Shown: piece by piece, positions 43,404 to 57,957 of the stretch
Position numbering within the stretch: the first letter of the stretch is position 1
How the letters are laid out: every line of letters starts with the position of its first letter
IMG/VR virus record: IMGVR_UViG_3300010398_000003
Span: 1 to 60,156 of that record
From: a virus
Reading direction: 5' to 3' (one strand)
DNA: 60,156 nt
Position numbers and translations under genes: made by a program
The notes under the pieces: generated by a model
What the model saw: the letters and a program-made list of their open reading frames with translations, nothing else
Databases searched by the model: none
Told to the model about the DNA's origin: nothing

Positions 43404-45377
43404 GTGGCCCACCGCCGCCCCGCCGCCGTAGCGCCCGAGCCGAAGCAGGAGATCATCCTGTCCTCGGACACTCCACCGCGCTCCCTGGTCGCCGCTGCCG
43501 CCGCCATTAAGCTGGACGGGCCCAGCATCCAGCGGATGCGGGTCTACGACCAGGAGTGGCAGTCCGAGGCGTGGCGTCATTACGACATCTGCGGTGAGCT
43601 GCGATTCGTCGCCAACCGGCACGCCGCCGCCATGTCCAGGGCCAAGCTGTACGTGGCCGACGTGGACGAGAACGGCAACATCCTCGGGCCCTGCAAGGAC
43701 AAGGACGTGCAGGCGCTCGCGGCGGCTCCGTTCGGTAACCAGGCGGCCCGCGCCGAAGGCATCCGCAACATCGCCATCCAGGAGTACATCGCCGGGGAGT
43801 GCTACCTGGTGGCCCTCGGTGGGACCGCCAATGACGGCCAGCCGGACCCGGACAACGACAAGTGGTTCGTGGTCTCCCGGAAGGAGATCCGCAAGCAGGG
43901 CGGGTTCATACAGGTGAAGCAGCCGCTGAACCTGGGCGGTGAATGGGCCACCCTGACGCAGGGCCGCGACCTATTCATGCGGATCTGGATGCCGCACCCG
44001 CGCCTCACCGACGTGGCCGACTCGCCTACCCGCGCGGTACTCCCCACCCTGCGCGAGATTGAGCGGCTGACGATGCTGGCGTTTAGCCAGATCGACTCTC
44101 GGCTCATCTCCGCCGGCCTGCTCCTGCTGCCCGAGGGCATCGACTTCCCGAAGACCGACGATCAGAAGTCCGGCATCCAGGGCCTTATGGACATGATCCT
44201 GGAGGCGGCCCGCGCGCAGCTCCAGGGCGCCGGTACCGCCGCCGGCCTCGTTCCGATCATGGCCACGGTGCCGCTGGCCGGCGTCGAAGGACGCGGCTCT
44301 ATCGCGAACTCCTTCGCCCACATCAAGTTCGACACGCCGCTGACCGCCGAGATTGAGAAGAAGCTGGACCAGGCGATCCGTCGGCTGGCCCTCGGGCTCG
44401 ATGTGGCCCCGGAGGATCTGCTCGGACAGGGTGACGCGAACCACTGGGCCGGCTGGCAGATCGAAGAGTCCTCGATCAAGATGTTCATTGAGCCGGCGCT
44501 GGTCCGGCTCTGTGGGGCCCTGAACGAAGGCTACCTGAACGCGGCCGTCAAGTCGTTGGGCAAGGACCCGGCCCGGTACGCGTTCTGGTACGACGCGGCC
44601 GAGCTGGTGGTGCGGCCCAACCGTCAGGCCGACGCGGTCACCCTGTACGAGAACGAGGCGCTGTCCGGCGATGCTCTGCGGGCGGCCGGCGCGTGGGACC
44701 CGGCCGACAAGCCGAGCGCCAAGGAGGTGCTGGAGCGGCGCACCTGGGCTCTCGTCCAGCTGAACCCGGCGCTCATCGCCGACCCACAGATCGCCGAGAT
44801 CCTCGGCTTCCCCCAGGGCATCCAGGTCCCCGGCGGGATGGGCCAAGGGCCACCCGGTGCGAACCCATCCCCGGAGGAGCTGGCCGCCCAGGGCGACCAG
44901 AACGCGCTACCCGACGCCGGCCAGGACCAGCGGCAGCTCCCGACCCAGCCGACCGACCAGGAGAGCCCGGCCCAGAACTCGGTGACGGCGGCCGGCATCC
45001 CAGTGCGCCGGGTCGGTACCGCGTTCATCACCGTGCTGCCCGGCGCGGAACAGGCCGTCCTCGGCGCGCTGTCCCGGGCCGGCGCGCGGCTGCTGGACCG
45101 GTCGAACCGGGGCCAGTACGCGGACGTGCCGCATCACGACCTGCACACGCGGATCAAGGTGAAGGACAAGGAGCACGCGCGCCAGCTGGTCTCGGGCGCG
45201 TTCGCGCACGTCCCGGAGCTGGCCAACCACTTCCAGCTGGACTCAAGGCAGCTGGAAGAGTTGCTCTCCGGATATTGCGTCGAGCTGCTCGCCCAGGGCT
45301 ACCCGCACAGCGCGCCGCTGCTCGACACCCTCCTTGCCAAGGCCGCCCCGCGCCTACGGGAGCGGGTGCCCGCGTGA
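43404..45377 (+). CDS. portal protein
   Basis: 657-aa ORF directly downstream of terL and upstream of the MuF-like gene. Size, position and an acidic Gln/Pro-rich C-terminal part fit a portal. No single diagnostic motif was read. Confidence 0.8.
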   Translation: MAHRRPAAVAPEPKQEIILSSDTPPRSLVAAAAAIKLDGPSIQRMRVYDQEWQSEAWRHYDICGELRFVANRHAAAMSRAKLYVADVDENGNILGPCKDKDVQALAAAPFGNQAARAEGIRNIAIQEYIAGECYLVALGGTANDGQPDPDNDKWFVVSRKEIRKQGGFIQVKQPLNLGGEWATLTQGRDLFMRIWMPHPRLTDVADSPTRAVLPTLREIERLTMLAFSQIDSRLISAGLLLLPEGIDFPKTDDQKSGIQGLMDMILEAARAQLQGAGTAAGLVPIMATVPLAGVEGRGSIANSFAHIKFDTPLTAEIEKKLDQAIRRLALGLDVAPEDLLGQGDANHWAGWQIEESSIKMFIEPALVRLCGALNEGYLNAAVKSLGKDPARYAFWYDAAELVVRPNRQADAVTLYENEALSGDALRAAGAWDPADKPSAKEVLERRTWALVQLNPALIADPQIAEILGFPQGIQVPGGMGQGPPGANPSPEELAAQGDQNALPDAGQDQRQLPTQPTDQESPAQNSVTAAGIPVRRVGTAFITVLPGAEQAVLGALSRAGARLLDRSNRGQYADVPHHDLHTRIKVKDKEHARQLVSGAFAHVPELANHFQLDSRQLEELLSGYCVELLAQGYPHSAPLLDTLLAKAAPRLRERVPA

Positions 45378-46267
45378 CGCAGCCCCAGACGCAGCAACTC
45401 CCGGCCCAGCCTCAGGAGCATCCGGTCGCGGCCACCGTCACCACCGCCGTGGCGCTCGACGCGATCCGGCGCGGCCTGCCCGACCCGTTCCTGCCACTGC
45501 GATGGGCCCGGCTCGCTAGCGTCGTGCGGGCGGAACGGCGTGTGCTCGGCCAGTACCGCGCCGCGATCGCCGACTGGACGCCGGCCGTGGCCCGGCGTGT
45601 CGTCCAGCATGGTGCCATCGATCCGCATGCCGTCCGGTTCGCCGCCCGGGGATTCGAGACCGCCGCCCGGCCGATCGTAGAGATCGAGCTGCGCGAGGTG
45701 TTCGAGACTGCCTTTCGCGAGGCCAGCGAGGCCGACTGGACGCCGGACGCTGACGCCTACCTGAAGCGGTACCTGGACGGTGCCTGGAACCGGCTGCGCG
45801 CCACCCCTGACCGCGTCTACAGCCTGATCACGCGCGAGGTGGCAACCGCCAGCCGCAACGGAGACGACATGGACACTCTGGCCGCCAAGATCGATGGCTT
45901 GTTCGCCGAGCACGACGTACCTACCTGGACGAACCGGGGGCTCACCGTGGCCCGCACCGAGGCCATCTCCGCGCACAACGCCGGCAACTTCGCCTCCTAC
46001 GTGGCCATGGCGAAGCAGGACGGCGGCGCCTGGGACAAGGTCTGGCTCGCCACCGAAGACGAGCGGACGCGGCCCACGCACGTGCGCGCCGACCTCCAGC
46101 GGGTGCCACTGCACGCCCCGTTCACCGTCGGCGGATTCCCCGGCATGTTCCCCGGCGACCCGACGCTACCCGCCCGGGAAGTGATCAACTGCCGGTGCGC
46201 GCCGCTCGCGGTCCGGGCCGGCGAGAAGATCGACCTGTCGCACCGCCAGTTCAAGGAGGCCGCGTGA
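45374..46267 (+). CDS. MuF-like (SPP1 gp7 family) head morphogenesis protein
   Basis: GTG 45374 overlaps the portal stop. GLTVARTEAISAHNAGNF...ATEDERTRPTHVRADLQRVPL...VINCRCAP is the Phage_Mu_F signature. Confidence 0.85.
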   Translation: MTQPQTQQLPAQPQEHPVAATVTTAVALDAIRRGLPDPFLPLRWARLASVVRAERRVLGQYRAAIADWTPAVARRVVQHGAIDPHAVRFAARGFETAARPIVEIELREVFETAFREASEADWTPDADAYLKRYLDGAWNRLRATPDRVYSLITREVATASRNGDDMDTLAAKIDGLFAEHDVPTWTNRGLTVARTEAISAHNAGNFASYVAMAKQDGGAWDKVWLATEDERTRPTHVRADLQRVPLHAPFTVGGFPGMFPGDPTLPAREVINCRCAPLAVRAGEKIDLSHRQFKEAA

Positions 46268-49200
46268 CCGCGTCGCTTGACCTCTACGCGCTCACCGCGC
46301 ACACGCCGGAGGGGTCGCGGGTGGTACTCGACCTGTACGCGGTCGGGGCGCAGGCCGGCGCGCTGCTCGCTGCCACCGTCCCCGTCGTCCAGCTGGACGA
46401 GACCGACCTGTACGGGCTCGACGTCGACAACTGGCTGTACGGGCTCGTCCACTTCGAGCACCAGGGCTGCGAGACCGGTGAGTACTGCCGTAACCCCCTG
46501 CATCCGGGTCCCTGCAAGGGCTGGAAGCACATGCTGCACAGCGTGGCGCCCGGCGCGTACCACGCCTACGAGCAGCAGAGGGTCGCGAAGCTGAACGAGG
46601 CGCGCCAGGCTCGGATAGCGGAGCTGAAGGCCGCCGGCAAGGCGGTCCCGAAGCATCTGCTGAAGCCGATCACCTACCAGCAGGTGCCCACCGCGCCGGC
46701 CGGGATCCCGTTCAAGCCACCCACTCCGAAGGAAGCCGAGGCGGCCCTCCCGACTACCGCGAAGGAGATCGCCCAGAAGATCGCGATGAAGCATGCTGAC
46801 ATCGCAGCCGCCCAGGCCAAGGCGAAGAAGGCGCTCCCCGGCCAGGGCGCGGCGGGATTCGCCACTCCGAAGGATGTCGATACCTACCTGCACGACTTCG
46901 AAGCGGACCCCAACCTCGCGGCGATGCCGGCGCTGAGCAAGGCCGTGTACAGCAAAAAGCTAGCCCAGATTGTCGATGACCCCAAGGCCACGCCCGAGCA
47001 GGTGGCGAAGGCCAAAGCGATCCTGGAGAAGATGGGCGCACCGAAGGCTGCTCCGCCTGTCGGGTCGTCGGCCAGCAAGGCCGCGAAGCTTGCAGCCGGT
47101 CAGGCCGGCAGCGTGATGATGCATAATGCCAAGCTCGGGCCGCCTGACAAGCCGATCATCCAGGCCGCCCTGGAGGCGCTGCACGATCACTCGAAGACGC
47201 CGGCCGCGCGCCTGGCCGCGTATGGCAGCCTGGAGCCGAAGCACGTTCAGGCCCTACCGCCGGACGTGGCCGAGGGGATCAGGAAGGATCTTGAGCACCT
47301 GGCGGGTGGTGGGTCCCACCTGGGCGGTGCGTCTATCGGGGCTAAGGCGGCCGATATCCACGGCAAGCTGTTCCCGCCGACCGCCGGGCCGGCCGGGAAG
47401 GTGTCGGGACCGCTCGCGCATCCGGACATGATGGCTGTGTCTGACCTGGCCAAGATGCCTAACGTCAGCCCCGCCCAGTTGGCGAAGGCGTTGGAGAAGC
47501 CTGGGGTGTCGAAGACGGAGCTGGATAAGCTACCGAATCCCACCAAGTTCAAGATCATGGATGCCATCCAGGCGGCGTACCAGAAGGAGCCGGCAGGTAC
47601 ATCCGATGGCTCGACCCTGGCATATATGCACGCGAAGCTGTTCGGGGAGCTGCCGCCGGCCAAGCTGCCTGCTCAGCGGGTGCAGTCCTCGGTCTCTGGT
47701 GGTGAGCCACACCCGGACATGGCGCATGCGCTGGAGATGTTGGCGGATTACCCGTCCCTCACCAAGGGGATCAATGCCCTAGATAAGACCACTATCACGA
47801 AGGCCGAGTATGCCAAGCTGGCCCCCGAGGATCAGCAGCTGATCAAGGATTTCCTGGCTGAGCACATCGGTGATGCGCCGGCCAGCGTCGATCACCTCGC
47901 CTACAAGCTGGGTATCGATAAGCTTGACTTGATCACGCCGACGGGCGAGAAGCCCAAGGTGGGCGCGGCCCAGGCCGCTCTGGCGGCGATCGACGCTGGT
48001 AAGCCGATGCTATCCAAGATCAAGAAGATCACGCCAGCTGAGTACGAGGCCCTTTCGGGAGCCGACCAGAAGAAGATCCACGACGTGCTGAAGGAGGAAC
48101 ACGACGCGGGGCACCCGAAGGTCGCCGCCGAGATTGCGGCCGGGCTGGGCCCGAAGGCGGTCATGAACCACACGCTGGCCGTGACCGGGTACACGCCGAC
48201 GAAGCGGGCGGCCCCCGGTGAGCCACACCCCGCGCTCCTCGACGCCCTGTTGTCGCTGAAGTCGAACAGTTCCAAGTCGATGGCGCTCAGCCACCTGGAC
48301 GACCCAGGCGTGACGGCGGCGCAGTTCGATGCGCTGCCGGAGGATGACCGTCAGCAGATCATGGACTTCCTCCACGAGGCAGCCCAGGCTAAGGGGCCGG
48401 CGACCAAGGCGAAGGCGAAGACTGTCGCGGCGAAGCTCGGCATCTCGTTGGCCGGCGAGGAGCCGGTACACGAGCGACCGTCGTCAACCAAGGGCGCGGC
48501 CAAGGTGGGTGGCGACGAGCTACTCCCCGGTTCGCCGGCGCATGTGATAGCCGCCCACGCTCTGGCCACCGGACTGACCTACGGCACCGCAACGAAGAAG
48601 CTGGCCGCCTACGGCAAGCTGTCCGCCGAGGAGTTCCACTCCCTGCCCGAGAACGCCCAGAAGGCCATCGTCTCCGACCTGAAGCAGGCCCATGACAAGT
48701 TCCTGGACCCGAAGAAGAAGAACCAGGTGCTGAACCTGCTGGAGAAGCTGAAGACCTCCGAGGCGATCCTGGAGACCCCGTCCGGTGGCGTCACCCCGCA
48801 GGGGAAGATGATCGCCAAGGCGCACGCGGCGATCCTGCCGCTCCTCGGCAACATGGCCGCACCGGTCACTCAGCATGAGCTGGAGCAGAACTACAGCAGT
48901 CCCGGGGCCAGTCTGCCTGACGAGGCGATGGCCCTCGCCAACGCCTGGTACGCCCATCACGTCCTCGATGGCGGCGTCGGTACCGCGCTCAGCCCGGACG
49001 ATCACGCCAAGGTGCTCCAGAAGGCCGAGGACGAGATCCTGCACATGCTCCAGACGGGCACGACGAAGCCGCCCAGCGACGGCGTCCTGGAGAACGCCGA
49101 CATCGCCGACAAGAACCTGCACGGCGCCAATAAGGCGGCCATGAAGGCGTCCCTCCTGAAGCAGGCGGCGAACAAGCAGACTGGGGCCGGCGGTAGCAGC

Positions 49201-50238
49201 CACGGGGGCGGCACTGCCGCGAAGGTCGAGGAGGCGGCGAAGAGCGCCGGGGTGCCCAAGGCTGTCAAGGACGAGGTGCTGGGCGCATTCAAGATGCACA
49301 CCCAGGGTGCCCAGCTGAAGGACCCGCCCGAGCAGGCGTACCAGGCGCTGCTGAACGTGGCGGCGGCGGCCAGTAAGAAGCCGGGCTGGCCCGACCTGTC
49401 GCTGCGCCAGATCATGCAGATCATCGACGAGCAGCACGCCAAGAACCTGGGCGTCACGAATCAGGGCCTGCTCGAACAGAAGATGGTCACCTGGCTCGGC
49501 ACTGCCGAGGGCAAAGCGGCGGCTGCCAACATGAAGCCGGACGCTGCGACGGTCAAGAAGCTGACCGGCGGCGTCGAGCTGCCCAAGGGCGTCAAGCTGA
49601 AGGCCGGCCAGAAGGTTCAGAACGTTGGCGGTCCCGGCGGGTACAAGAAGACCGACGGGCCGTTCCATGGCTACACCTCGGACCAGGCCATCGCCGAGCG
49701 CGACGCCTACCAGGCGCAGACCGGTCAGAAGTGGACCAAGGCTCAGCACGACGCCCTGTATTCCTACACGTACGCATCCGGCTCGATGAACAACTACCTG
49801 CGCAACGAGGCCGGCGCAGACACCTCGACCAAACAGAAGATTATCGATGCCCAGTCGGCGATGCAGCCGCTCCAGCACGACCATCTGCTCGGGCGCGGCA
49901 CCGGGTGGAGCGCGGTGCCGCCCGAGTTCCGGGGCTGGCCCGAAGCGCAGGGAATGGTCGGTAAGACCATCTCCGACCCGGCGTTCCTGTCCACGTCGGT
50001 AACTGGATCGCATCACGGCTTTTCTGGCCACGTGGTGTGGATCATCGAAGCGCCCGCCGGCACGATGGGCGCGTTCGTGGATGATTTCAGCAAGTTCCAT
50101 GGAGAGGCGGAGATGCTGCTCGCCGCCGGGACCCAGCTGAAGATCCTGGGTGTCGAGCAGTACGGCGATGGCATCCGCGTCCGGGCGCGCGTCGTATCTG
50201 GCTCGAAGACGGCGATCTCGACGGGGAAGAAGATATGA
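46264..50238 (+). CDS. giant virion-module protein with C-terminal R-S-ExE ADP-ribosyltransferase domain
   Basis: GTG 46264 overlaps the MuF stop (GTGA). 1,324 aa. ART triad: LLGRG (Arg codon 49894-49896), FLSTS (49990-49998), GEAEM (50104-50112). The ART domain spans roughly 49672-50199. There are six degenerate internal repeats. Confidence 0.85.
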   Translation: MTASLDLYALTAHTPEGSRVVLDLYAVGAQAGALLAATVPVVQLDETDLYGLDVDNWLYGLVHFEHQGCETGEYCRNPLHPGPCKGWKHMLHSVAPGAYHAYEQQRVAKLNEARQARIAELKAAGKAVPKHLLKPITYQQVPTAPAGIPFKPPTPKEAEAALPTTAKEIAQKIAMKHADIAAAQAKAKKALPGQGAAGFATPKDVDTYLHDFEADPNLAAMPALSKAVYSKKLAQIVDDPKATPEQVAKAKAILEKMGAPKAAPPVGSSASKAAKLAAGQAGSVMMHNAKLGPPDKPIIQAALEALHDHSKTPAARLAAYGSLEPKHVQALPPDVAEGIRKDLEHLAGGGSHLGGASIGAKAADIHGKLFPPTAGPAGKVSGPLAHPDMMAVSDLAKMPNVSPAQLAKALEKPGVSKTELDKLPNPTKFKIMDAIQAAYQKEPAGTSDGSTLAYMHAKLFGELPPAKLPAQRVQSSVSGGEPHPDMAHALEMLADYPSLTKGINALDKTTITKAEYAKLAPEDQQLIKDFLAEHIGDAPASVDHLAYKLGIDKLDLITPTGEKPKVGAAQAALAAIDAGKPMLSKIKKITPAEYEALSGADQKKIHDVLKEEHDAGHPKVAAEIAAGLGPKAVMNHTLAVTGYTPTKRAAPGEPHPALLDALLSLKSNSSKSMALSHLDDPGVTAAQFDALPEDDRQQIMDFLHEAAQAKGPATKAKAKTVAAKLGISLAGEEPVHERPSSTKGAAKVGGDELLPGSPAHVIAAHALATGLTYGTATKKLAAYGKLSAEEFHSLPENAQKAIVSDLKQAHDKFLDPKKKNQVLNLLEKLKTSEAILETPSGGVTPQGKMIAKAHAAILPLLGNMAAPVTQHELEQNYSSPGASLPDEAMALANAWYAHHVLDGGVGTALSPDDHAKVLQKAEDEILHMLQTGTTKPPSDGVLENADIADKNLHGANKAAMKASLLKQAANKQTGAGGSSHGGGTAAKVEEAAKSAGVPKAVKDEVLGAFKMHTQGAQLKDPPEQAYQALLNVAAAASKKPGWPDLSLRQIMQIIDEQHAKNLGVTNQGLLEQKMVTWLGTAEGKAAAANMKPDAATVKKLTGGVELPKGVKLKAGQKVQNVGGPGGYKKTDGPFHGYTSDQAIAERDAYQAQTGQKWTKAQHDALYSYTYASGSMNNYLRNEAGADTSTKQKIIDAQSAMQPLQHDHLLGRGTGWSAVPPEFRGWPEAQGMVGKTISDPAFLSTSVTGSHHGFSGHVVWIIEAPAGTMGAFVDDFSKFHGEAEMLLAAGTQLKILGVEQYGDGIRVRARVVSGSKTAISTGKKI
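47140..48702 (+). repeat. six tandem degenerate protein repeats (84-104 aa units) inside the giant gene
   Basis: Each unit has (G)EPHPxxxxALxxL followed by (S/T)xxE(F/Y)xxLPxxxxxxIxxxLxxxH. Examples: TPAARLAAYGSLEPKHVQALPPDVAEGIRKDLEH, KKLAAYGKLSAEEFHSLPENAQKAIVSDLKQAH, ITKAEYAKLAPEDQQLIKDFLAEH, VTAAQFDALPEDDRQQIMDFLHE. Confidence 0.7.
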
Positions 50239-50414
50239 CCGATCAGCCGATGGGGACGCCGGAGAGCCCGGAGCCGCTCGACGAACCGCGCTTCCAGGTG
50301 GTGGACGACGTGCCGGACGCCGAGGAAGATCAGGGCATGACCGACCGGGAGGTCCAGGAGTTCCTGGACGCGCCCTGGTCGCAGCACCAGGCGAATGAGG
50401 GGACCGGGCCATGA
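50235..50414 (+). CDS. 59-aa acidic protein
   Basis: ATG 50235 overlaps the upstream stop, and its own stop overlaps ATG 50411 (ATGA at both ends). Sequence begins MTDQPMGTPESPEPLDEPRFQVVDDVPDAEEDQG. Below the ORF-track cut-off. Confidence 0.5.
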   Translation: MTDQPMGTPESPEPLDEPRFQVVDDVPDAEEDQGMTDREVQEFLDAPWSQHQANEGTGP

Positions 50415-52633
50415 CCGCACCGTGTACCGACTGCGACCAGCCGGCGGACGACTTCGTGGCGGTCACCGCTGACGACGAGGACCAGGTGGACGAGAACGTG
50501 GATCCGCGCGGTACCAAGGTCCGCGTGTTCGGCCCGATGCTCATCGCCCCGTACGGGAAGAAGACCGGCGACCGGCGGCGCTTCGCCGCGCAGTCCCTCA
50601 CCAACCGGGACACCCCGCTCGCGGTGAAGTGGCAGCGCGCTGACGAAAAGGGGCACTCCACCAGTGTCGTCGTGGCCGCGATCGACGAGATCGAGCACCG
50701 TGACGACGGTGTATACGGCTCCGGAATCATCTTCGATCCGGACCCCGACCAGCTGCCCCGCCTCGCCGAGGACGTGGCCGAGTTCAACCTCCTGGCCTCC
50801 CAGGGCGTCCTGGGCCCGTCGGTGGACCTGGACGCGATGGAGTTCCGCGCGCTGCCGCCCGAGGGCGACGAGCATGCGGGCGAACTAGCGGCCGGCGAGG
50901 AGCGTCCGGAGATCGAGGTCACCTCGGGTCGGATCTCCGCCGTCACCGCCGTGGTCATCCCGGCCTTCGCCGAGGTGGACCGGTTCGCGATCCGCGAGGA
51001 GGATGCGGGCGAGTACGCGGCCCGCAAGGAGGCGGCGTACTCCGCCCTCACGGCGGCCGTGCGGGCGACCGGCTGGACCGATATGCCCTTGGCCGCGCCC
51101 GGTACCGCGTGGGACGCGGAGGCCGCCCAGCAGCGGATCAAGTCGTGGGCCGGTGGCGACATGGGCAAGTATGCCCAGGCGTTCCTCTGGAGCGGCGAGC
51201 CGGCGCAAAACCTGACCTCGTACAAGTTCCCCCTCGCCGACGTGATCGGTGGCCAGCTCAAGCTGGTCCCGAAGGCCGTCACCGCCGCGTCCGGTGTGTT
51301 GGCCGGTGCGATGGGTGGCACGAGCCTGCCCATGGCCGACCAGGCACGCATGCACGGCGTCCTCGTCGCACTGAAGTCACGCTTCGACCCGGATCAGGAC
51401 GGCGACGACGACCGGGACGACCTGAGCGAGAACGGCGAGGGCGCGCACGGGCTCGATGCGACCACCTTCACCGCGCTGGTGGATGAGCTGGGGCCGGAGC
51501 TGGACGGCGAGGCGGCCACCTTCGGCGCGCGGTTCGACGCGATCGTAGCGAAGCTACGTGGACGCAAGGGGATCGCGGACCCGGCAGCCGTCGCCGCCTC
51601 CATCGGCCGGGCGAAGTATGGCAAGAAGGGCATGGCCCGGCTGCGGGCCGGCGTCAGCCCGAGCAAGGTGAAGCCGCTCGCGGCCAGTGGCCGGCTGACC
51701 GCGCTGATCGCAGCGGCCGTGACCGGTGACTGGGCCGGCGTGGAGGAGGACGACGTGCGCGAGCTGGCCAGCCTGACCGCGAGTGGCTACGTGCCGGCGG
51801 CCGTGGACTCCACCTGGTTCGACAACCCGAAGCTGGACCGGCCCACTCCGCTCCGGATCACCGAGGACGGCCGGGTGTTTGGGCATGTCGCCGACTGGAA
51901 GACCTGCCACACGGCCTTCGCCGGCTGCGTGCGCGCCCCGAAGTCCAAGAGCAACTATGCGTACTTCCACGTGGGCGAGACGCTCACCGACAAAGGCCCC
52001 CTCGCAGTCGGGAAGCTGACCATCGGTGGTGGCCATGCAGACGGCCAGTTCGGGTACCGTGCGGCGGCAGCCCACTACGACGACGTGGCGACTGCCGTCG
52101 CCGAGGTGCGGGCCGGCGAGGACAAGCACGGCATCTGGGTGGCCGGCCGGCTCCTGCCCGGTGTGCAGGGTACCGAGCGGGAGGCCGAGCTGCGTCGCTC
52201 GCCGCTGTCCGGTGACTGGCGTCCCATCGGTGGCCACCTGGAGATGATCGCCGCGCTGGGGGTCAACTCGCCGGGCTTCCCGATCCCGCGCGTGGCCTTG
52301 GCCGCCTCCGGCGCGGTCGATCCGGAGGCGGAAGGCCAGGTGGTCTCGCTCGTCGCGGCCGGCGTCCTGGCACCCGCCCGGCCGGCGATGACATTCGACC
52401 TGGAGCAGGTACAGACGGTGGCCCGCGCGGCGGCCCAGGCTGTCCTGGACGAGCAGGCGGCGGCCGGCCGGCGCGCCAAGGCCCAGGGACTGTTCGCTGT
52501 GATGGACGACACCGACGACCAGCAGAACCTGGTCATGCGGCGCCGGAAGGCCAAGAAGGCGGCCATGGCCGTATCCTCGGGCGCGAAGGCGGTCGGCGCG
52601 CGGTCGGCCGGCGGCGACTACCAGGGGGGGTAG
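50411..52633 (+). CDS. prohead (capsid maturation) protease with long C-terminal extension
   Basis: 740 aa. KWQRADEKGHSTSVVVAAIDEIEHRDDGVYG, GVLGPSVDLD and ISAVTAVVIPAFAEV parallel the HK97/S78 protease His, Ser and strand motifs. A second similar block lies near AGEDKHGIWVAGRLL...LSGDWRP...VNSPGFPIPR. Confidence 0.75.
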   Translation: MTAPCTDCDQPADDFVAVTADDEDQVDENVDPRGTKVRVFGPMLIAPYGKKTGDRRRFAAQSLTNRDTPLAVKWQRADEKGHSTSVVVAAIDEIEHRDDGVYGSGIIFDPDPDQLPRLAEDVAEFNLLASQGVLGPSVDLDAMEFRALPPEGDEHAGELAAGEERPEIEVTSGRISAVTAVVIPAFAEVDRFAIREEDAGEYAARKEAAYSALTAAVRATGWTDMPLAAPGTAWDAEAAQQRIKSWAGGDMGKYAQAFLWSGEPAQNLTSYKFPLADVIGGQLKLVPKAVTAASGVLAGAMGGTSLPMADQARMHGVLVALKSRFDPDQDGDDDRDDLSENGEGAHGLDATTFTALVDELGPELDGEAATFGARFDAIVAKLRGRKGIADPAAVAASIGRAKYGKKGMARLRAGVSPSKVKPLAASGRLTALIAAAVTGDWAGVEEDDVRELASLTASGYVPAAVDSTWFDNPKLDRPTPLRITEDGRVFGHVADWKTCHTAFAGCVRAPKSKSNYAYFHVGETLTDKGPLAVGKLTIGGGHADGQFGYRAAAAHYDDVATAVAEVRAGEDKHGIWVAGRLLPGVQGTEREAELRRSPLSGDWRPIGGHLEMIAALGVNSPGFPIPRVALAASGAVDPEAEGQVVSLVAAGVLAPARPAMTFDLEQVQTVARAAAQAVLDEQAAAGRRAKAQGLFAVMDDTDDQQNLVMRRRKAKKAAMAVSSGAKAVGARSAGGDYQGG

Positions 52634-52635
52634 CG

Positions 52636-52812
52636 ATGGCGTGCGGATGCCAGGGTGGGCAGTACGGCACGGTGGCGGAGCCGGCGCAGAAGGCGTACGA
52701 GTCGGCCCCGAAGGACGCGCCCGTGCGGCGGTTCGAAGGCGTGGACGCGTACAGCGAGGCACGGCAGTACGCAGCCCGTAACGGTGGCGGACGCGTCCGC
52801 GAGGTGGACTGA
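52636..52812 (+). CDS. 58-aa hypothetical protein
   Basis: ATG 52636 lies 3 nt after the protease stop. Sequence begins MACGCQGGQYGTVAEPAQKAYESAPKD. Below the ORF-track cut-off. Confidence 0.4.
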   Translation: MACGCQGGQYGTVAEPAQKAYESAPKDAPVRRFEGVDAYSEARQYAARNGGGRVREVD

Positions 52813-52817
52813 TCCAG

Positions 52818-53213
52818 GTGGACGCGGCTGAACTGTACGCGGCCCGGCGTGCCAACGAGGACGTCGACTGGCTGGTGGCTCAGCTTGCCGTCCTCGCCCT
52901 GGAGCCGGCGCTGAGGCCGGAGACGCGCGCGCTCGGCGCCGATCCGACCGCCCAGGGCTGGCCGGCCGAGTTCGCTTCGACGGGCACCGCGCTACACCCG
53001 GCCTCGACCGAACGGCTCATGGAGTACTGGTCGCACGGTGAGGGCGCGGCGAAGGTGCGCTGGCCGGAGCCGTGTGCGTTCTGCCGCTGCCTGGACCACC
53101 TGGCTAAGTACTTCCCGAAGGACCCGAAAGGGCTCTGCGCCAACCTGGAGCGGCGAGCGACCGGGCACTGGCCGAACCCCGAGCATCACCGGACCCACCA
53201 CTGCCCGTGCTGA
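52818..53213 (+). CDS. hypothetical protein of the head module
   Basis: 131 aa. GTG follows GAGGTGG. LMEYWSHGEGAAKVRWPEPCAFCRCLDHLAKYFPKDPKGLCANL is a block I recall as commonly encoded near capsid genes in actinophages. Function unknown. Confidence 0.6.
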   Translation: MDAAELYAARRANEDVDWLVAQLAVLALEPALRPETRALGADPTAQGWPAEFASTGTALHPASTERLMEYWSHGEGAAKVRWPEPCAFCRCLDHLAKYFPKDPKGLCANLERRATGHWPNPEHHRTHHCPC

Positions 53214-53301
53214 CGCGGTAGTCCACAATGGACATACGTGAGCGCGCATGAGCTGGTGATGCACTGGGTATATGGCGGGAAACCTCCGAGAGGACACCGT
53301 C

Positions 53302-53511
53302 ATGGTCAAGAAGGACGCCCAGAAGGACCCGACCGAGGCTCAGGCCGCCGACCCGGAACGGCAGGCGCCGGACACCACCCAGCGGGAGCAGAGCGCCCCG
53401 ACCCGGGGCCCAGCCGGTGAGGTGGTCGGGGAGCGGCCCCTTTCGGCCGACGAGCGCCGACTGATGCACGAGCAGGACGTCGAGCGGGGGGCGGCCGACG
53501 TCGGCATGTAG
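53302..53511 (+). CDS. hypothetical small hydrophilic protein
   Basis: ATG 53302 after GAGAGGA, in frame within ORF 53272..53511. 69 aa. Confidence 0.45.
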   Translation: MVKKDAQKDPTEAQAADPERQAPDTTQREQSAPTRGPAGEVVGERPLSADERRLMHEQDVERGAADVGM

Positions 53512-53543
53512 GCTGGGCGCGACCCAGCTGGGACCGGACAGAG

Positions 53544-53577
53544 CGAGGCCCCCACCGACCTTACGGTGGGGGCCTCG
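53544..53577. terminator. bidirectional terminator between the late genes and the inverted island
   Basis: CGAGGCCCCCACCG (53544-53557) pairs perfectly with CGGTGGGGGCCTCG (53564-53577) around a 6-nt loop, followed by TCGTATTGT. Confidence 0.75.
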
Positions 53578-53585
53578 TCGTATTG

Positions 53586-53864
53586 TCAGGCGGACGCGCG
53601 GCGGCACGGTCGCGTACCGCAGTGCGCGCAGAAGCCGGTCAGGCTAGCTGGCTCTGTCAGCTCGTACATCCCATCTGGGATGTGCTCCGAGTACCGGGAC
53701 GGCGATTCACGGGGGCTTCCGTCCCGGTCAAGGTAGTAGTTCCCGCTGTGAAGGCGCAGCACGGTGATCCCACGTGCGCGGGATCGCGTCACGTCCCCGT
53801 CGATCACTGTCGCGAGCCCGGCGGCGATTCGGACTAGGCTGCCATTCGGTGGGCGGTCCTTCAC
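53586..53864 (-). CDS. hypothetical protein, last gene of the island
   Basis: GTG 53864 overlaps the glycohydrolase stop (GTGA), in frame within ORF 53586..54071. 92 aa. C-terminal CAHCGTRPC. Confidence 0.5.
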   Translation of the reverse strand: MKDRPPNGSLVRIAAGLATVIDGDVTRSRARGITVLRLHSGNYYLDRDGSPRESPSRYSEHIPDGMYELTEPASLTGFCAHCGTRPCRRASA

Positions 53865-54856
53865 GCCGTCGCCCCCTCCAGCTCCTGGCGAAACTCGATC
53901 TTGCTGTACCAGTCGGCCGGCCAGGCGGTGAAGCCGTACGCGGCGCCGGCCAGCGCGCCCGTGATCGCCGCGATCGAGTCGCTGTCGCCGCCCGTCGCGG
54001 CGGCCCGCCGGATCGCCAACACCGGGTCGCCGGGAAATAGGAGCAGGCAGGCCAGCGCGGTGGCCAGGCACTGCTCGGCCGTCCAGCCTTCACCCGTTAT
54101 CACGCACGGGTCCGCGTACCGGTCGTCCACCTGGAGCGCGGTCTCGACTGACCAGAGTGCGTCCTGGCATTCGAACCATCCCATGCGGGCCACCTGGAGC
54201 GGACGCGGGAACGCGCCCTCGCGGGTCGCCATCGCCCAGTCCTGGCACTCGCTGACCAGGTAGGGCAGCAGATCACTCAGCGAGCAGCCGGTGGCGAGGG
54301 CCCGGACCGCCTGGGCGGTCAGCTGCGCGGCGGCTACGGCCGTGGGATGCCGGTGGGTGATGACCGCCTGCATACGCGCGGCGTAGATCATGTCCATCTC
54401 GCCCCACGGCAAGAGCGCGACTGGTGCCACCCGCATGTTGGCACCGCAGCCCTTGGACAACTGGTCGCCAGCCCGGAATAGAGGGGCACCACCGGCCAGC
54501 CGGCGCAGCGAGGTCATTACGGTCATGCCCGGGTGGCGCCCGTCGTGGCCACCGTACCGGCCGTCCAGGTAGGCAAGAAACTCGGTCCGGACCGCCTCGC
54601 GGAGAAGGTACGAACGTCCCAGATCGGTCATGAGCGGCGCAGTCTGACGGGTGGCGGACGCGATGGCCTCGGCCAGGGCCAGCGTCATCTGGGTGTCGTC
54701 GGTGACCCTCCAGTCGTGAACGGCGGGTGTGGCTGGCCCGAGTTGGCCGTACCTGTGCAGGATCTCGCCGTAGCGCATGAACTCGGTCTCCGCGCCGAGC
54801 GCGTCGCCGTAGGCGGTGCCGAACAGGACACCCATCCTGGTGTTGTGGTCGATCAT
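53861..54856 (-). CDS. ADP-ribosylglycohydrolase (ARH/DraG family)
   Basis: ATG 54856 after AGGAGAGGAG. 331 aa. GTAYGDALGAETE, VTDDTQMTLALAEA and TGGDSDSIAAITGALAGAAYG are the metal-binding signature blocks of the ARH family, and all are intact. Confidence 0.9.
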   Translation of the reverse strand: MIDHNTRMGVLFGTAYGDALGAETEFMRYGEILHRYGQLGPATPAVHDWRVTDDTQMTLALAEAIASATRQTAPLMTDLGRSYLLREAVRTEFLAYLDGRYGGHDGRHPGMTVMTSLRRLAGGAPLFRAGDQLSKGCGANMRVAPVALLPWGEMDMIYAARMQAVITHRHPTAVAAAQLTAQAVRALATGCSLSDLLPYLVSECQDWAMATREGAFPRPLQVARMGWFECQDALWSVETALQVDDRYADPCVITGEGWTAEQCLATALACLLLFPGDPVLAIRRAAATGGDSDSIAAITGALAGAAYGFTAWPADWYSKIEFRQELEGATA

Positions 54857-54929
54857 CTCGGTCTCCTCTCCTGAGACTCCAGTGCGGCGCCCGGTCCACC
54901 CCTCCGGGACCGGGCGCCGCACAAGGGCG

Positions 54930-55301
54930 TCAGTGGGCGGTCAGGTTTAGCGCGGTGATCCAGCGGCCGGTGCGGGGGACCACGTAGGTAGCCACGGTCT
55001 CGGGGATGATGTGCAGCTGGATGCCCTCGGGGATCTTGATGCCCTCCACGGTCGCGGAGTCATCCGCGAAGACCTCGTAGGCGCCGAGCGCCGCGTTGCC
55101 GTTGGTGACGACACCTTCACCGCTCTCGCCCTCCCGGACGATCACGATCTGGTGCTCGTCGCCGGCCTCGTCCACCAGGGCGTCGAAGGTGTAAGGCCCC
55201 TGGCCGCCGCGCCCGTCCATGGTGAAGCGGTACCGGGCGACTGTGCCCTCGGTGTCGACGTAGGCGAAAAACCCGTGCTGGCTGTGGGTCTTGATCTCCA
55301 T
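54930..55301 (-). CDS. hypothetical protein, first gene of the ARH sub-operon
   Basis: ATG 55301 after AGGAGG, in frame within ORF 54930..55886. 123 aa, beta-type. It lies 19 nt downstream of element B. Confidence 0.6.
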   Translation of the reverse strand: MEIKTHSQHGFFAYVDTEGTVARYRFTMDGRGGQGPYTFDALVDEAGDEHQIVIVREGESGEGVVTNGNAALGAYEVFADDSATVEGIKIPEGIQLHIIPETVATYVVPRTGRWITALNLTAH

Positions 55302-55320
55302 GGTGACCTCCTGGTCGGTC

Positions 55321-55372
55321 CCTGTCGTGCGTACCTCTACAGCATAGCCCGCCTTGACGCACCCGTCAAGGC
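55321..55372 (-). promoter_or_regulatory. promoter/operator B: sigma70-like hexamers, palindrome and dyad element
   Basis: The minus strand reads TTGACG (55369-55364)-17 nt-TATGCT (55346-55341), then GCTGTAGAGGTACGCACGACAGG (55343-55321). The palindrome GCCTTGACG / CGTCAAGGC at 55351-55372 contains TTGAC-N6-GTCAA. It lies inside the 3' end of CDS 55337..55804. Confidence 0.65.
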
Positions 55373-55804
55373 GTCCCACTGGGCCCGGTACGCATCCCGC
55401 AACATCTCTGCCGTGAACCCGCCGACACGGCGTACCCGATCGTGGACCGCCTGCCGGCTGATATCCAGCACCTCGGCCACCACCTCGCGCGGAACATCCT
55501 GCTGGTAGTAGCCAATGTGCCAGGCGCATGCCCGGCCCAGCGGCGTACCCCACCAGCGGAAGTCCGGTTGGACGTGCAGTTCGGTCGCGATGTCGTGGGC
55601 GGCCTGGCGCGCCCGGGTGGCCAGCGTGGTCTCGTCGGCGTCCGGGGTATCCATGGCCAGCTCGCGCCAGTAGAAGCGGGAGACTCCGGCCACCGTCGCC
55701 TCGCACTGCTCGCCAAGGATGGCGCGGGCTCGCCGGTACAGCACCGCGATCTCGCGGGTCAGCTGCGCGTGCACGGTCCGGCCGGTGGCGGGATTCGGGA
55801 TCAC
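55337..55804 (-). CDS. HTH-containing protein (regulator candidate)
   Basis: 155 aa. REVVAEVLDISRQAVHDRVRRVGG is an HTH-like segment. The stop TAG lies inside element B. Confidence 0.55.
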   Translation of the reverse strand: MIPNPATGRTVHAQLTREIAVLYRRARAILGEQCEATVAGVSRFYWRELAMDTPDADETTLATRARQAAHDIATELHVQPDFRWWGTPLGRACAWHIGYYQQDVPREVVAEVLDISRQAVHDRVRRVGGFTAEMLRDAYRAQWDALTGASRRAML

Positions 55805-56348: not shown

Positions 56349-56371
56349 CAAAATCCTTGCCTCCTCGAACG

Positions 56372-56430
56372 CCTGTCGTGTCATGCTCTACAGCATAGGC
56401 CACCTTGACGGTGATGTCAAGGTGGCCTAT
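56372..56430 (-). promoter_or_regulatory. promoter/operator C: sigma70-like hexamers, 15-bp-arm palindrome and dyad element
   Basis: The minus strand reads TTGACA (56420-56415)-17 nt-TATGCT (56397-56392), then GCTGTAGAGCATGACACGACAGG (56394-56372). A perfect palindrome ATAGGCCACCTTGAC-N6-GTCAAGGTGGCCTAT spans 56395-56430. Confidence 0.65.
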
Positions 56431-56440
56431 GCGTGGCAGG

Positions 56441-57933: not shown

Positions 57934-57957
57934 GAGATCGGGTCCACACAGAGATGT

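What the first reader, a model, noticed from the sequence alone, without database searches (positions are those of the whole stretch)
46264..54856. Phage encodes both an ADP-ribosyltransferase and an intact ADP-ribosylglycohydrolase under separate control
The ART has its Arg, STS and ExE motifs all present and is encoded in the late virion module. About 3.6 kb downstream on the opposite strand lies an ARH/DraG-family hydrolase with all signature blocks (GDALG, TDDT, GGDSDSIAAITGALAGA). It is driven by its own strong promoter, which carries a palindromic operator (element B). A writer/eraser pair in one phage resembles toxin-immunity pairs such as ART effectors with ARH-type immunity proteins, and the DraT/DraG logic. 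Two models seem possible. In the first, the injected ART modifies a host target early and the ARH reverses it or protects the producer cell. In the second, the ARH independently removes host defence-imposed ADP-ribosylation. I am not aware of this pairing having been characterised as a phage system.
Basis: partly seen in the sequence, partly recalled or inferred. Interest (0 to 1): 0.8.

Follow-up and report, generated by a model that had tools for sequence, protein, structure and literature searches.

The report
Phage ADP-ribosylation toxin and eraser pair
An uncultured actinobacterial phage encodes an enzyme that tags proteins with ADP-ribose and a second enzyme that removes the tag; about 100 related phage contigs show the two genes travel together, as in toxin-immunity pairs already described in other phages, so this is a new variant of a known arrangement.

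Summary
Both genes are real and look catalytically intact. The ART is the C-terminal domain of a 1324-aa protein (46264-50238, +) with R1211, S1243-T-S1245 and E1281-x-E1283. It sits between the MuF gene and the head protease gene. The ARH (53861-54856, -) is a full-length PF03747 protein with every ARH1-type catalytic residue. The promoter with the palindrome is real. However, it lies 485 nt upstream of the ARH start, in front of a 123-aa gene. It is one of six copies of a genome-wide motif, and a strong conserved hairpin separates that gene from the ARH.

Comparative data support a functional writer/eraser link. In related 55-60 kb phage contigs the same cargo protein ends either in an ART or in a NUDIX domain. 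An ARH is present in 13 of 18 ART-type relatives and in 0 of 12 NUDIX-type relatives (p = 9e-5). The two types are interleaved on a portal tree. Unrelated low-GC phages show MuF::ART, then a small ORF, then an ARH.

The pairing is not new. Bxa/BAH/Bsi (prophage, 2024), Tre1/Tri1 and Lmo0066/67 are characterised or solved ART plus ARH-immunity pairs. I rate it a new variant of a known kind, of moderate interest.

The parts
45374..46267 (+). MuF-like head morphogenesis gene (297 aa). It is a separate polypeptide; its stop overlaps the ART start (GTGA).
   Evidence: PF04233 Phage_Mu_F, E 2.2e-9; gene call in the identical contig L003; junction sequence.
46264..50238 (+). Giant cargo protein (1324 aa) with a C-terminal ADP-ribosyltransferase domain.
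   Evidence: GC3 is 0.87.
46450..46677 (+). Conserved N-terminal Cys/His motif of the cargo protein (aa 63-138, ..CRNPLHPGPCKGWKH..). It is the family signature and a candidate head-targeting domain (inferred).
   Evidence: 52-88% identical across relatives. Used as a probe, it recovered 104 viral stretches.
46741..48693 (+). Ala/Lys/Pro-rich region with about 7 repeats of 80-100 aa (xALPxxxxxxIxxxLxxxH).
   Evidence: Regex and composition only. Not tested further.
49729..50193 (+). ART catalytic domain (aa 1156-1310). R1211 is at 49894-49896, STS at 49990-49998 and ExE at 50104-50112.
50235..50414 (+). Acidic 59-aa ORF, translationally coupled to the ART (ATGA overlap). Candidate cognate small partner (immunity or adaptor; inferred).
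   Evidence: It aligns with the 66-68-aa ORF that follows type-A ARTs in 9 relatives. A different 47-51-aa ORF follows type-D ARTs.
50411..52633 (+). Head maturation protease-like / virion structural gene (740 aa). It shows that the ART lies inside the head module.
   Evidence: phrog_18402, phrog_29860 and phrog_859.
53545..53576 (.). Bidirectional terminator-like hairpin between the convergent head operon and the ARH operon.
   Evidence: dG -53 kcal/mol, z -4.2. No Rfam family.
53586..53864 (-). Doubtful 92-aa ORF that overlaps the ARH stop (GTGA).
   Evidence: Called in L003, but GC3 is only 0.77, it is absent in L002 and it has no family hits.
53861..54856 (-). ADP-ribosylglycohydrolase (331 aa), ARH1/DraG/Tri1-like, with all catalytic residues present.
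54882..54922 (-). 16-bp perfect stem-loop between orf123 and the ARH ribosome-binding site. Likely an attenuator, partial terminator or RNA-stability element (inferred).
   Evidence: A hairpin at the same place in L002 has a different sequence, i.e. compensatory changes.
54930..55301 (-). orf123, a small beta-rich protein and the first gene of the ARH operon. In the clade its family is found only next to ART-type cargo.
   Evidence: Its N-terminal half resembles Ig-like repeats. The AF2 model was unusable.
55321..55376 (-). Sigma-70-like promoter (TTGACG-17-TATGCT) with its -35 inside an 8-bp-arm palindrome, followed by the conserved leader CTGTAGAG-N8-GACAGG.
   Evidence: The same element precedes the orf123 homologue in L002.
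55337..55804 (-). HTH155, a small helix-turn-helix protein (YlxM/sigma-region-4-like). It is conserved next to the ARH in relatives but also occurs in NUDIX-type relatives.

Best explanation
This is a phage-borne ADP-ribosylation toxin/immunity-type module. A 1324-aa cargo protein is made from the head-morphogenesis operon and is translationally coupled to MuF. It carries a C-terminal R-S-ExE ADP-ribosyltransferase, which is probably arginine-specific. The protein is most likely loaded into the capsid and delivered with the DNA; this step is inferred. The ARH is an ARH1/DraG/Tri1-like, probably arginine-ADP-ribose, hydrolase. It acts as the cognate eraser: in any cell that expresses the phage genome it strips the ADP-ribose that the phage's own ART puts on cellular (or phage) proteins. 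This lets the ART be produced for packaging without poisoning virion production. Small linked ORFs (orf59 directly after the ART, and orf123 in front of the ARH) may add non-enzymatic inhibition, as Bsi does for Bxa. In this phage and its closest relative the orf123-ARH unit has moved to a leftward cassette read from sigma-70-like, operator-bearing promoters. The eraser can therefore be made independently of, and probably before, the late-expressed writer.

Shown: the gene order, the intact motifs, the co-occurrence and the promoter and hairpin anatomy. Inferred: packaging, arginine specificity, the direction of protection and the timing.
For: 1. Both enzymes look intact, and their nearest characterised relatives are the two halves of ART/ARH-immunity complexes. 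For the ART these are Lmo0066 (8ZA7_B, 3.7e-12) and Tre1 (6DRE_B, 1e-3). For the ARH they are ARH1 (8e-19), DraG (1.5e-17), Tri1 (6DRE_A, 1.7e-13) and Lmo0067 (8ZA7_A, 2.6e-8).

2. The closest relative (ARH 58% identical, a 55.7 kb contig) keeps the same layout, even though its ART domain is too diverged for tblastn to detect.

3. About 20 further 55-60 kb contigs have portal, MuF, giant ART, tiny ORF, orf123 family, HTH155 family, ARH and protease, all co-directional and tightly packed.

4. A scan that was blind to ART and ARH, using the cargo protein's N-terminal motif, found two cargo types. ART-type relatives have an ARH in 13 of 18 cases. NUDIX-type relatives have one in 0 of 12 cases. 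Fisher's exact p is 8.7e-5. None of the NUDIX-type contigs appears among the contigs returned by the collection-wide ARH scan (one search compared).

5. On a portal tree (595 columns) the two types are interleaved at distances of 0.12-0.17. The ARH therefore tracked the ART through several cargo swaps.

6. Independent low-GC phage lineages show portal, a MuF::ART fusion, a 72-94-aa ORF and then an ARH. In 33 of the 37 ART-positive ARH loci, the ART ends 0.27-1.65 kb upstream of the ARH on the same strand.

7. There is an experimental precedent. The prophage MuF::ART toxin Bxa is neutralised enzymatically by the adjacent ARH1-like BAH (the E15A mutant is dead) and physically by the small protein Bsi (PMC11699363).
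Against: There is no experiment on these proteins. Toxicity, target, packaging and ARH specificity are all inferred.

The ARH is not obligatory for virion-module ARTs. Five of 18 ART-type relatives lack it; two of these have a NADAR gene in the same slot. Of the 67 cultured actinophage records with a homologous ART, 66 have no detectable ARH.

The ARH also occurs in phages without a nearby ART of this family. This holds for 44 of the 81 ARH loci, although many of those contigs are truncated. The closest cellular homologues (45-48% identical) are orphans.

The co-occurrence counts come from related metagenomic contigs and are not fully independent. The NJ trees are rough.

In this window the two genes are 3.6 kb apart on opposite strands, so linkage here rests on comparison with other contigs, not on adjacency.
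Confidence: 0.7

Rival explanations
1. Timed writer/eraser switch. The ART is ejected into the new host with the DNA and modifies a host target during the first minutes, for example to shut off or redirect host functions as T4 Alt does. The ARH is then transcribed by host RNA polymerase from the sigma-70-like promoters and deliberately erases the mark, so that the target works again for the later phase of infection. The purpose is temporal control, not self-protection.
For: In this window and in L002 the ARH operon has host-type promoters with operator-like palindromes and its own terminator. It is uncoupled from the head operon that encodes the ART. No integrase or lysogeny module was found among the ORFs scanned, so lysogen immunity is not an obvious role.
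Against: In most relatives the ARH lies directly downstream of the ART, tightly packed in the same operon (intergenic gaps of 23-47 nt). It would then be made together with the writer, late in infection, and not before it. The promoter motif is absent from those relatives. This reading overlaps with the best explanation and cannot be separated from it by sequence alone.
Confidence: 0.17
2. Independent counter-defence. The ARH removes ADP-ribose that host defence or host regulatory ARTs put on phage or host molecules, and it has no functional tie to the phage's own ART.
For: ARH genes occur in other phages with no ART of this family within 10 kb, for example the Rhodococcus phages Trina and Weasels2 and some jumbo-phage contigs. 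The nearest cellular homologues are stand-alone genes, and such orphan ARGs have been proposed to act on extrinsic modifications (PMC9503650).
Against: Within this phage clade the ARH is present only with ART-type cargo (13 of 18 compared with 0 of 12) and follows it through swaps. The ART-then-ARH order, with 0.3-1.6 kb spacing, recurs in unrelated lineages. No PADLOC defence or anti-defence model matches.
Confidence: 0.08
3. The ARH acts on a small molecule or on the ART itself rather than on ART targets. Candidates are free ADP-ribose derivatives, O-acetyl-ADP-ribose, or removal of auto-ADP-ribosylation so that the cargo stays active.
For: Some ARH-family members (ARH3) hydrolyse O-acetyl-ADP-ribose (PMC9503650). 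The alternative cargo type carries a NUDIX domain, which is also an ADP-ribose/NAD-processing fold. This suggests the module as a whole deals with NAD/ADPr chemistry.
Against: The best matches are the arginine-specific protein hydrolases ARH1, DraG and Tri1, not ARH3. The experimentally studied analogue BAH acts on modified proteins.
Confidence: 0.05

Closest known systems
Bxa / BAH / Bsi of the Bacteroides stercoris prophage PhiBxa (Alexei et al., J Biol Chem 2024, PMC11699363)
   Same: A phage head-module ART toxin is accompanied by an ARH1-like hydrolase that has the catalytic Glu and the Mg-binding Asp residues. One or more small ORFs sit between or next to them. The toxin belongs to a polymorphic family whose C-termini vary among relatives.
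   Different: Bxa's ART is fused directly to a MuF domain. Here MuF is a separate protein, and the ART ends a 1324-aa protein with its own conserved N-terminal motif and a long repeat region. BAH is adjacent to bxa, whereas here the ARH is 3.6 kb away on the other strand behind its own promoter. The host phylum differs (Actinomycetota-like, 68% GC), no lysogeny genes were found, and there are no experiments.
Tre1 / Tri1 (Serratia proteamaculans T6SS; PDB 6DRE/6DRH; NCBIfam NF041672 'ADP-ribosylarginine hydrolase Tri1')
   Same: An R-S-E ART effector is neutralised by an ARH-fold immunity enzyme that removes arginine-linked ADP-ribose. Both window proteins hit the two chains of this complex.
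   Different: Delivery is by T6SS (a PAAR protein), not by a phage particle. From my own knowledge, Tri1 also blocks Tre1 with an N-terminal extension; no terminal extension is seen in the phage ARHs, whose longer versions carry an internal insertion. The score is far below the Tri1 equivalog cut-off (61 compared with 490 bits).
Lmo0066 / Lmo0067 of Listeria monocytogenes (PDB 8ZA7)
   Same: Lmo0066 is the best solved-structure match of the ART domain (3.7e-12, with R, STS and ExE aligned). Its partner chain Lmo0067 matches the C-terminus of the ARH.
   Different: It is a chromosomal bacterial locus, not a phage head module. No paper describing it was found in the library, so its biology is not known to me.
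MuF polymorphic toxins of temperate phages (Jamet et al., BMC Biol 2017, PMC5576092)
   Same: The toxin is encoded beside the portal and MuF genes in the packaging/head module. The C-termini are variable (14% are ARTs), a small ORF follows downstream, and delivery with the ejected DNA has been proposed.
   Different: The defining MuF-toxin fusion is absent here. The cargo uses a different conserved N-terminal domain. No evidence of temperate life style was found in this genome.
Phage T4 Alt (a capsid-packaged ART that is ejected with the DNA; from my own knowledge, also cited in PMC5576092 and PMC9503650)
   Same: It is an Alt/VIP2-clade arginine ART associated with the phage head and is thought to act on the newly infected cell.
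   Different: T4 encodes no ARH eraser for Alt. Alt is a small protein with a capsid-targeting sequence, not a giant repeat-containing cargo.
DraT / DraG (reversible ADP-ribosylation of nitrogenase reductase)
   Same: A writer/eraser logic operates on an arginine. The ARH matches the DraG model (TIGR02662, 9e-26) and DraG structures (1.5e-17).
   Different: It is a cellular metabolic regulator. DraT is unrelated in role to a head-module toxin. The score is far below the DraG equivalog cut-off (91 compared with 337 bits), so the phage ARH is not a DraG orthologue.

Membership tests
R-S-E (cholera-toxin-like, VIP2/Alt/C2-type) ADP-ribosyltransferases, Pfam PF03496 | Significant match to the family model, above the curated cut-off | tested here: met
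   PF03496 scores 57.9 bits against a cut-off of 23.4, E 1.1e-15. phrog_3895 'ADP-ribosyltransferase exoenzyme toxin', 2.4e-9.
R-S-E (cholera-toxin-like, VIP2/Alt/C2-type) ADP-ribosyltransferases, Pfam PF03496 | Catalytic Arg, Ser-Thr-Ser and Glu-x-Glu motifs in the right order and spacing | tested here: met
   R1211, S1243-T-S1245 and E1281-A-E1283. They align with the same motifs of Lmo0066 and fall in the invariant columns among 10-19 phage ART domains.
R-S-E (cholera-toxin-like, VIP2/Alt/C2-type) ADP-ribosyltransferases, Pfam PF03496 | NAD-dependent transfer of ADP-ribose to a defined acceptor (arginine is expected from ExE) | not testable with these tools
   Biochemistry is required.
ADP-ribosylglycohydrolase (ARH/DraG) superfamily, Pfam PF03747 | Full-length match to the family model | tested here: met
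   212.5 bits, E 1.3e-62, profile positions 1-286 of 287.
ADP-ribosylglycohydrolase (ARH/DraG) superfamily, Pfam PF03747 | Catalytic Glu, the (S/T)DDT and GDSDS metal-binding aspartates, and the TH motif | tested here: met
   E25, T52-D53-D54-T55, T167-H168, H170 and D291-S-D293 are invariant in alignments A1 and A6 and align to the ARH1 blocks.
DraG or Tri1 orthologue (NCBIfam equivalogs TIGR02662, NF041672) | Score above the curated equivalog cut-off | tested here: not met
   90.7 compared with 337 bits for DraG, and 61.3 compared with 490 bits for Tri1. It is a distinct ARH subfamily with many actinobacterial, Ktedonobacteria and cyanobacterial members at 43-50% identity.
MuF polymorphic toxins (Jamet 2017) | N-terminal MuF domain fused in one polypeptide to a C-terminal toxin domain | tested here: not met
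   MuF (45374-46267) ends with TGA, and the ART ORF starts at an overlapping GTG. The two are also separate in L002 and are separated by gaps in L010 and others.
MuF polymorphic toxins (Jamet 2017) | Position in the packaging/head module next to portal and MuF, with variable C-terminal domains among relatives | tested here: met
   The order is TerL, portal, MuF, cargo, protease. The C-termini comprise at least 4 ART sequence types, or NUDIX plus an unknown domain.
ART toxin with ARH-type enzymatic immunity (Tre1/Tri1, Bxa/BAH kind) | Genomic linkage or co-occurrence of the ART and ARH beyond chance | tested here: met
   13 of 18 compared with 0 of 12, p = 8.7e-5. The types are interleaved on a portal tree. 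The ART-then-ARH order recurs in independent lineages.
ART toxin with ARH-type enzymatic immunity (Tre1/Tri1, Bxa/BAH kind) | Immunity gene immediately adjacent to the toxin gene | tested here: not met
   In this window the genes are 3.6 kb apart on opposite strands. The feature is met in most relatives, at 0.3-1.6 kb on the same strand.
ART toxin with ARH-type enzymatic immunity (Tre1/Tri1, Bxa/BAH kind) | The ART is toxic, and the ARH reverses its modification and rescues growth | not testable with these tools
   Requires co-expression and de-ADP-ribosylation assays.

The most novel reading that the evidence does not exclude
The pair is a built-in timer rather than mere self-protection. A capsid-delivered ART imposes an arginine-ADP-ribose mark on a host target at the moment of entry. 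The eraser is transcribed by host polymerase from operator-controlled promoters and removes the mark on schedule. Phage development is then gated by a reversible post-translational modification that the phage both writes and erases. More broadly, the giant 'HPGPCKGWK' cargo proteins, with their swappable ART or NUDIX heads and matching ARH or NADAR erasers, would be a previously undescribed MuF-independent family of phage-delivered polymorphic effectors in soil actinophages.
Probability: 0.2. Interest if true: 0.7.

Novelty: new variant of a known kind. Interest (0 to 1): 0.45.

Why it matters
Phage-delivered ARTs are widespread. It is still unclear what they do in the infected cell and why some need an eraser. 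This clade offers a natural experiment. Nearly identical phage backbones carry either an ART cargo with an ARH or a NUDIX cargo without one. The eraser sits either inside the late operon or behind its own host-type promoter. If relatives are cultured or the genes are synthesised, one could test directly whether the eraser protects the producing cell, times the effect of an injected enzyme, or both. It also extends the ART plus ARH-immunity logic, shown experimentally for one Bacteroides prophage and for T6SS effectors, to actinobacterial phages and to a cargo protein that is not fused to MuF.

Tried and rejected
- Megablast of the 8.7-kb region against 50,697 phage records found no match. The phage is only distantly related to cultured ones; the best portal match is Actinoplanes phage phiAsp2 at 32%.
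- An exact look-up of the 353-aa ARH ORF found nothing because the true start is the ATG at 54856. The 331-aa form was found.
- Single-protein scans of viral contigs with the ARH and with the ART domain found nothing. An alignment of very diverse ART domains was too variable to scan with. Alignments of the ARH, of the major capsid protein and of the cargo N-terminal motif did work.
- AlphaFold2 of orf123 from a single sequence gave pLDDT 36 and is unusable, so no fold search was run. Relatives taken from loci may not be used in that tool, so no MSA-based or complex model of the ART with orf59 or orf123 was possible.
- The word-indexed homologue search found only orf123 itself and found nothing for the first 150 aa of the cargo protein. 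An exhaustive HMMER search gave only 9 orf123 relatives.
- PADLOC gave no defence-system match for any of the six proteins tested. Rfam gave no family for the hairpins. There are no tRNA genes.
- The unknown C-terminal domain of the NUDIX-type cargo has no PDB, Pfam or PHROG match.
- I considered and rejected that HTH155 is an ART-specific partner, because it also occurs in NUDIX-type relatives.
- I considered and rejected that the promoter is private to the ARH, because the motif occurs six times in the genome and sits in front of orf123.
- No integrase or repressor module was found among the roughly 20 largest ORFs. The life style stays open, although related capsid genes occur in prophages of Streptomyces, Micromonospora, Actinoplanes, Rhodococcus and Gordonia.

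Full report
WHAT THE WINDOW IS. The window (68% GC) is essentially a whole uncultured phage genome in circular permutation. The ARH protein is found, identical, on contigs of 60,174 and 60,063 bp. On those contigs the genes at the right end of the window continue into the genes at its left end. The large terminase (41335-42828), portal (43404-45377) and MuF (45374-46267) are followed by the cargo/ART gene, a protease-like head gene (50411-52633) and three small genes. A 4.3-kb leftward cassette (53586-57851) then interrupts the structural genes. After it come the major capsid protein (58173-59981, phrog_777) and, at the window's left end, tail genes including the tape measure (6749-9244). There is no near match among 50,697 phage records. 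The best portal match is Actinoplanes phage phiAsp2 at 32%. No integrase was found among the large ORFs.

THE OBSERVATION: THE TWO ENZYMES. The ART is the C-terminal domain of a 1324-aa protein (46264-50238). Its GTG start overlaps the MuF stop (GTGA), and its stop overlaps the start of a 59-aa ORF (ATGA). The domain matches PF03496 (E 1.1e-15), a PHROG of ART toxins and, best among solved structures, Lmo0066 of entry 8ZA7 (3.7e-12). R1211, S1243-T-S1245 and E1281-A-E1283 align with the catalytic motifs and are the invariant columns among diverged phage ART domains. The ARH (53861-54856, minus strand, 331 aa from the ATG at 54856) covers the whole PF03747 model (E 1.3e-62). It keeps E25, TDDT 52-55, the TH motif and DSD 291-293, which are invariant in two alignments. 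These residues align to the corresponding blocks of human ARH1. Its best structural relatives by sequence are the arginine-specific hydrolases ARH1, DraG and Tri1, ahead of ARH3. It scores far below the DraG and Tri1 equivalog cut-offs, so it belongs to a separate subfamily. That subfamily has thousands of cellular members at 43-50% identity.

THE OBSERVATION: THE PROMOTER. The promoter claim needs correcting. A TTGACG-17-TATGCT site, with its -35 inside a palindrome, lies at 55369-55341. It precedes a 123-aa ORF (55301-54930), not the ARH. Between that ORF and the ARH ribosome-binding site there is a perfect 16-bp hairpin (54882-54922; -52 kcal/mol, z -4.1). The -10 element and the following leader (TATGCTGTAGAG-N7-CGACAGG) occur six times in the genome, where about 0.01 copies would be expected by chance. 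One degenerate copy lies just upstream of the terminase operon. The closest relative, L002, has the same promoter, then a small ORF, a hairpin and the ARH. Its hairpin has a different sequence, so the structure is conserved rather than the bases. The operon ends at a strong bidirectional hairpin (53545-53576). Neither hairpin matches an Rfam family.

RELATIVES SELECTED BY THE ARH. A profile scan of IMG/VR returned 129 stretches, of which 80 loci were kept. About 25 of these are high-GC contigs of the same phage type. All those with enough flank carry the giant cargo protein ending in an R-S-ExE ART. In most, the order is portal, MuF, cargo/ART, a 47-68-aa ORF, an orf123-family gene, an HTH155-family gene, the ARH and the protease. 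These genes share one strand, with gaps of tens of bases. The window, L002 and L004/L005 instead have the ARH unit inverted on the far side of the protease. The ART domains fall into at least four sequence types that do not find each other by tblastn, yet all keep R, S and ExE. The tiny ORF directly after the ART changes with the ART type, while orf123, HTH155 and the ARH stay the same. Of the 81 ARH loci, 37 have an ART within 10 kb (22 of the 38 with at least 5 kb of flank on both sides). In 33 of these 37 loci, the ART ends 0.27-1.65 kb upstream of the ARH on the same strand. These include several unrelated low-GC lineages with the order portal, MuF::ART fusion, a 72-94-aa ORF and the ARH.

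RELATIVES SELECTED WITHOUT REFERENCE TO ART OR ARH. The cargo protein has a strongly conserved N-terminal motif (..NPLHPGPCKGWK..). Scanning IMG/VR with it gave 104 stretches, of which 80 loci were kept. Of the 45 complete cargo ORFs, 26 end in an ART. Sixteen of the other 19 end in a NUDIX domain (PF00293) followed by an unassignable domain of about 200 aa. Among loci with a complete cargo gene and at least 4.6 kb of downstream sequence, the ART type has an ARH in 13 of 18 cases and the NUDIX type in 0 of 12 (Fisher p = 8.7e-5). None of the NUDIX-type contigs, several of them 55-61 kb long, is among the contigs returned by the collection-wide ARH scan (one search compared). On a neighbour-joining tree of the portal protein (595 columns), ART+ARH genomes and NUDIX genomes without an ARH are interleaved at distances of 0.12-0.17. 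The eraser has therefore followed the writer through several cargo exchanges. The tree is rough, and the contigs are not independent samples. The orf123 family is likewise seen only in ART-type loci, whereas HTH155 also occurs in NUDIX-type loci. Two of the five ARH-less ART-type contigs carry a NADAR gene (PF08719, another ADP-ribose-removing fold) next to the HTH155 homologue. One NUDIX-type relative on the same branch also has it.

WIDER CONTEXT. Prophages with the same capsid and head module in Streptomyces, Micromonospora, Actinoplanes, Rhodococcus, Gordonia and Nocardia genomes mostly lack both genes. Of 31, none has an ARH, 4 have MuF::ART-like proteins and none has the giant cargo protein. 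Cultured Arthrobacter and Microbacterium phages carry 'MuF/protease plus VIP2-like ART toxin' fusions without an ARH. Only Gordonia phage Morgana appears in both the ART hit list and the ARH hit list. An ARH is therefore an optional companion of virion-module ARTs. Within this clade, however, it is never seen without one. The closest cellular ARHs are stand-alone genes.

MECHANISM. I infer that the cargo protein is a head-associated effector, from three points. It sits between MuF and the protease, it is translationally coupled to both neighbours, and it has a conserved N-terminal domain with exchangeable C-terminal 'warheads'. This is the logic of MuF polymorphic toxins, which are proposed to be ejected with the DNA (PMC5576092), and of T4 Alt. 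Packaging itself is not shown. The ExE motif and the nearest relatives suggest arginine as the acceptor; this is an inference from family knowledge. The ARH most likely erases the marks made by this ART in the cell that expresses the phage genome. An experimental precedent exists: the prophage MuF::ART toxin Bxa is neutralised by the adjacent ARH1-like enzyme BAH, whose catalytic-Glu mutant is inactive, and by the small binding protein Bsi (PMC11699363). By analogy, orf59 (which co-varies with ART type) and orf123 (which is ART-linked and Ig-like) are candidate non-enzymatic partners. This is unproven, and the structure prediction failed. In the window's sub-lineage the eraser unit sits behind host-type, operator-bearing promoters. 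It could therefore be made before the late-expressed writer. That arrangement fits pre-emptive protection and equally fits a deliberate erase-after-entry timer. The co-directional, tightly packed arrangement in most relatives favours plain producer-cell protection as the ancestral role.

COMPARISON WITH WHAT IS KNOWN, AND NOVELTY. The ART plus ARH-immunity principle is established for T6SS (Tre1/Tri1, PDB 6DRE), for a Listeria locus (8ZA7) and, experimentally, for a prophage (Bxa/BAH/Bsi, 2024). ART-ARG pairs in Aeromonas phages and sporadic ARGs in actinophages were noted in a 2022 survey (PMC9503650). The statement that this pairing has not been characterised in phages is therefore out of date. 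What differs here is fourfold. The cargo protein is not fused to MuF and has its own conserved N-terminal domain and a long repeat region. The family alternates between ART and NUDIX warheads, with the ARH tracking the ART. The eraser comes with two conserved small genes. In this genome it has been moved under separate promoter control. I classify it as a new variant of a known kind, of moderate interest (0.45).

Noticed in passing
window 19888-19913(-), 36378-36403(+), 40975-41000(+), 55321-55346(-), 56372-56397(-), 57911-57936(-): A conserved promoter/leader motif, TAT(G/C)CTGTAGAG-N7-(C/T)GACAGG, occurs six times, each a few to about 15 nt before a ribosome-binding site. Three copies have a TTGAC -35 inside a palindrome of 8-17 bp arms. 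One degenerate copy lies just upstream of the terminase/head operon. It looks like a phage-wide regulon of operator-controlled promoters or start-associated sequences. It is present in relative L002 and absent from the other relatives.
   Followed up: partly
window 46741-48693 (cargo protein aa 160-810): The N-terminal two thirds of the ART protein is Ala/Lys/Leu/Pro-rich. It contains about 7 repeats, spaced 78-103 aa apart, with the motif xALPxxxxxxIxxxLxxxH. It has no family match. Its function is unknown (spacer, internal head protein or ejection conduit are possibilities).
   Followed up: partly
L119, L122, L126, L132, L137, L142, L144, L149, L160, L168, L173, L175, L179, L182, L188, L190 (cargo ORFs, e.g. 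L119:9263-14587): Relatives of the cargo protein with the same N-terminal HPGPCKGWK motif end in a NUDIX domain plus a conserved domain of about 200 aa, instead of an ART. That extra domain has no Pfam, PDB or PHROG match. These genomes have no ARH.
   Followed up: partly
L195:14788-15393(-), L193:17394-18182(-), L137:17970-18647(-): A NADAR-domain protein (PF08719, E ~1e-24) sits next to the HTH155 homologue in a deep-branching sub-clade that lacks the ARH. Two of these contigs have ART cargo and one has NUDIX cargo. It may be a non-homologous replacement of the eraser.
   Followed up: partly
L011:2-1807, L013:1-1521, L040:2784-4112 (same contig as L167:8145-9473), L171:5649-7478, L177:7674-9017: Several relatives carry two ART cargo proteins: a short one of 440-610 aa (in at least three of them N-terminal motif plus ART, without the repeat region) directly before the giant one.
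   Followed up: no
window 54930-55301(-) and 55337-55804(-): orf123 (beta-rich; its N-terminal half resembles Ig-like repeats of Pom152, invasin and filamin type; only 9 relatives among 1.8 billion representative proteins) and HTH155 (YlxM/sigma-region-4-like HTH) accompany the ARH in 21 related contigs. orf123 is restricted to ART-type genomes. HTH155 is not.
   Followed up: partly
window 53586-57851 (minus strand): A 4.3-kb leftward cassette of about 9 small genes splits the head protease from the major capsid gene. It has three copies of the promoter motif and its own terminator. Relatives also have a leftward cassette at this spot with different content (for example a 611-aa gene in L012 and an FAD-binding monooxygenase-like gene in L130), so this is a hot spot for accessory genes.
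   Followed up: partly
window 53586-53864(-): A 92-aa ORF overlaps the ARH stop codon (GTGA) and ends in a CxxC..C motif. Its GC3 is only 0.77, it has no homologues and it is absent in L002, so it may not be a gene.
   Followed up: partly
window 1-60156: The window is a circularly permuted complete genome of about 60.1 kb. It has Erf-type recombinase (21188-22780), a replication-initiator-like gene (23775-24881), DUF932 (27488-28627) and an Rv2179c-like exonuclease (31651-32424). It has no tRNA genes, and no integrase was detected.
   Followed up: partly
L001 (Mycobacterium phage McProf 58991-60001) and related M. abscessus prophages: The annotated 'ADP-ribosyl glycohydrolase' genes of the McProf-type prophages (32-33% identical to the window ARH) are not next to an annotated ART. 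The polymorphic toxin cassette of McProf about 5 kb away is a WXG-100/Tde-like DNase with Tdi-like immunity.
   Followed up: no
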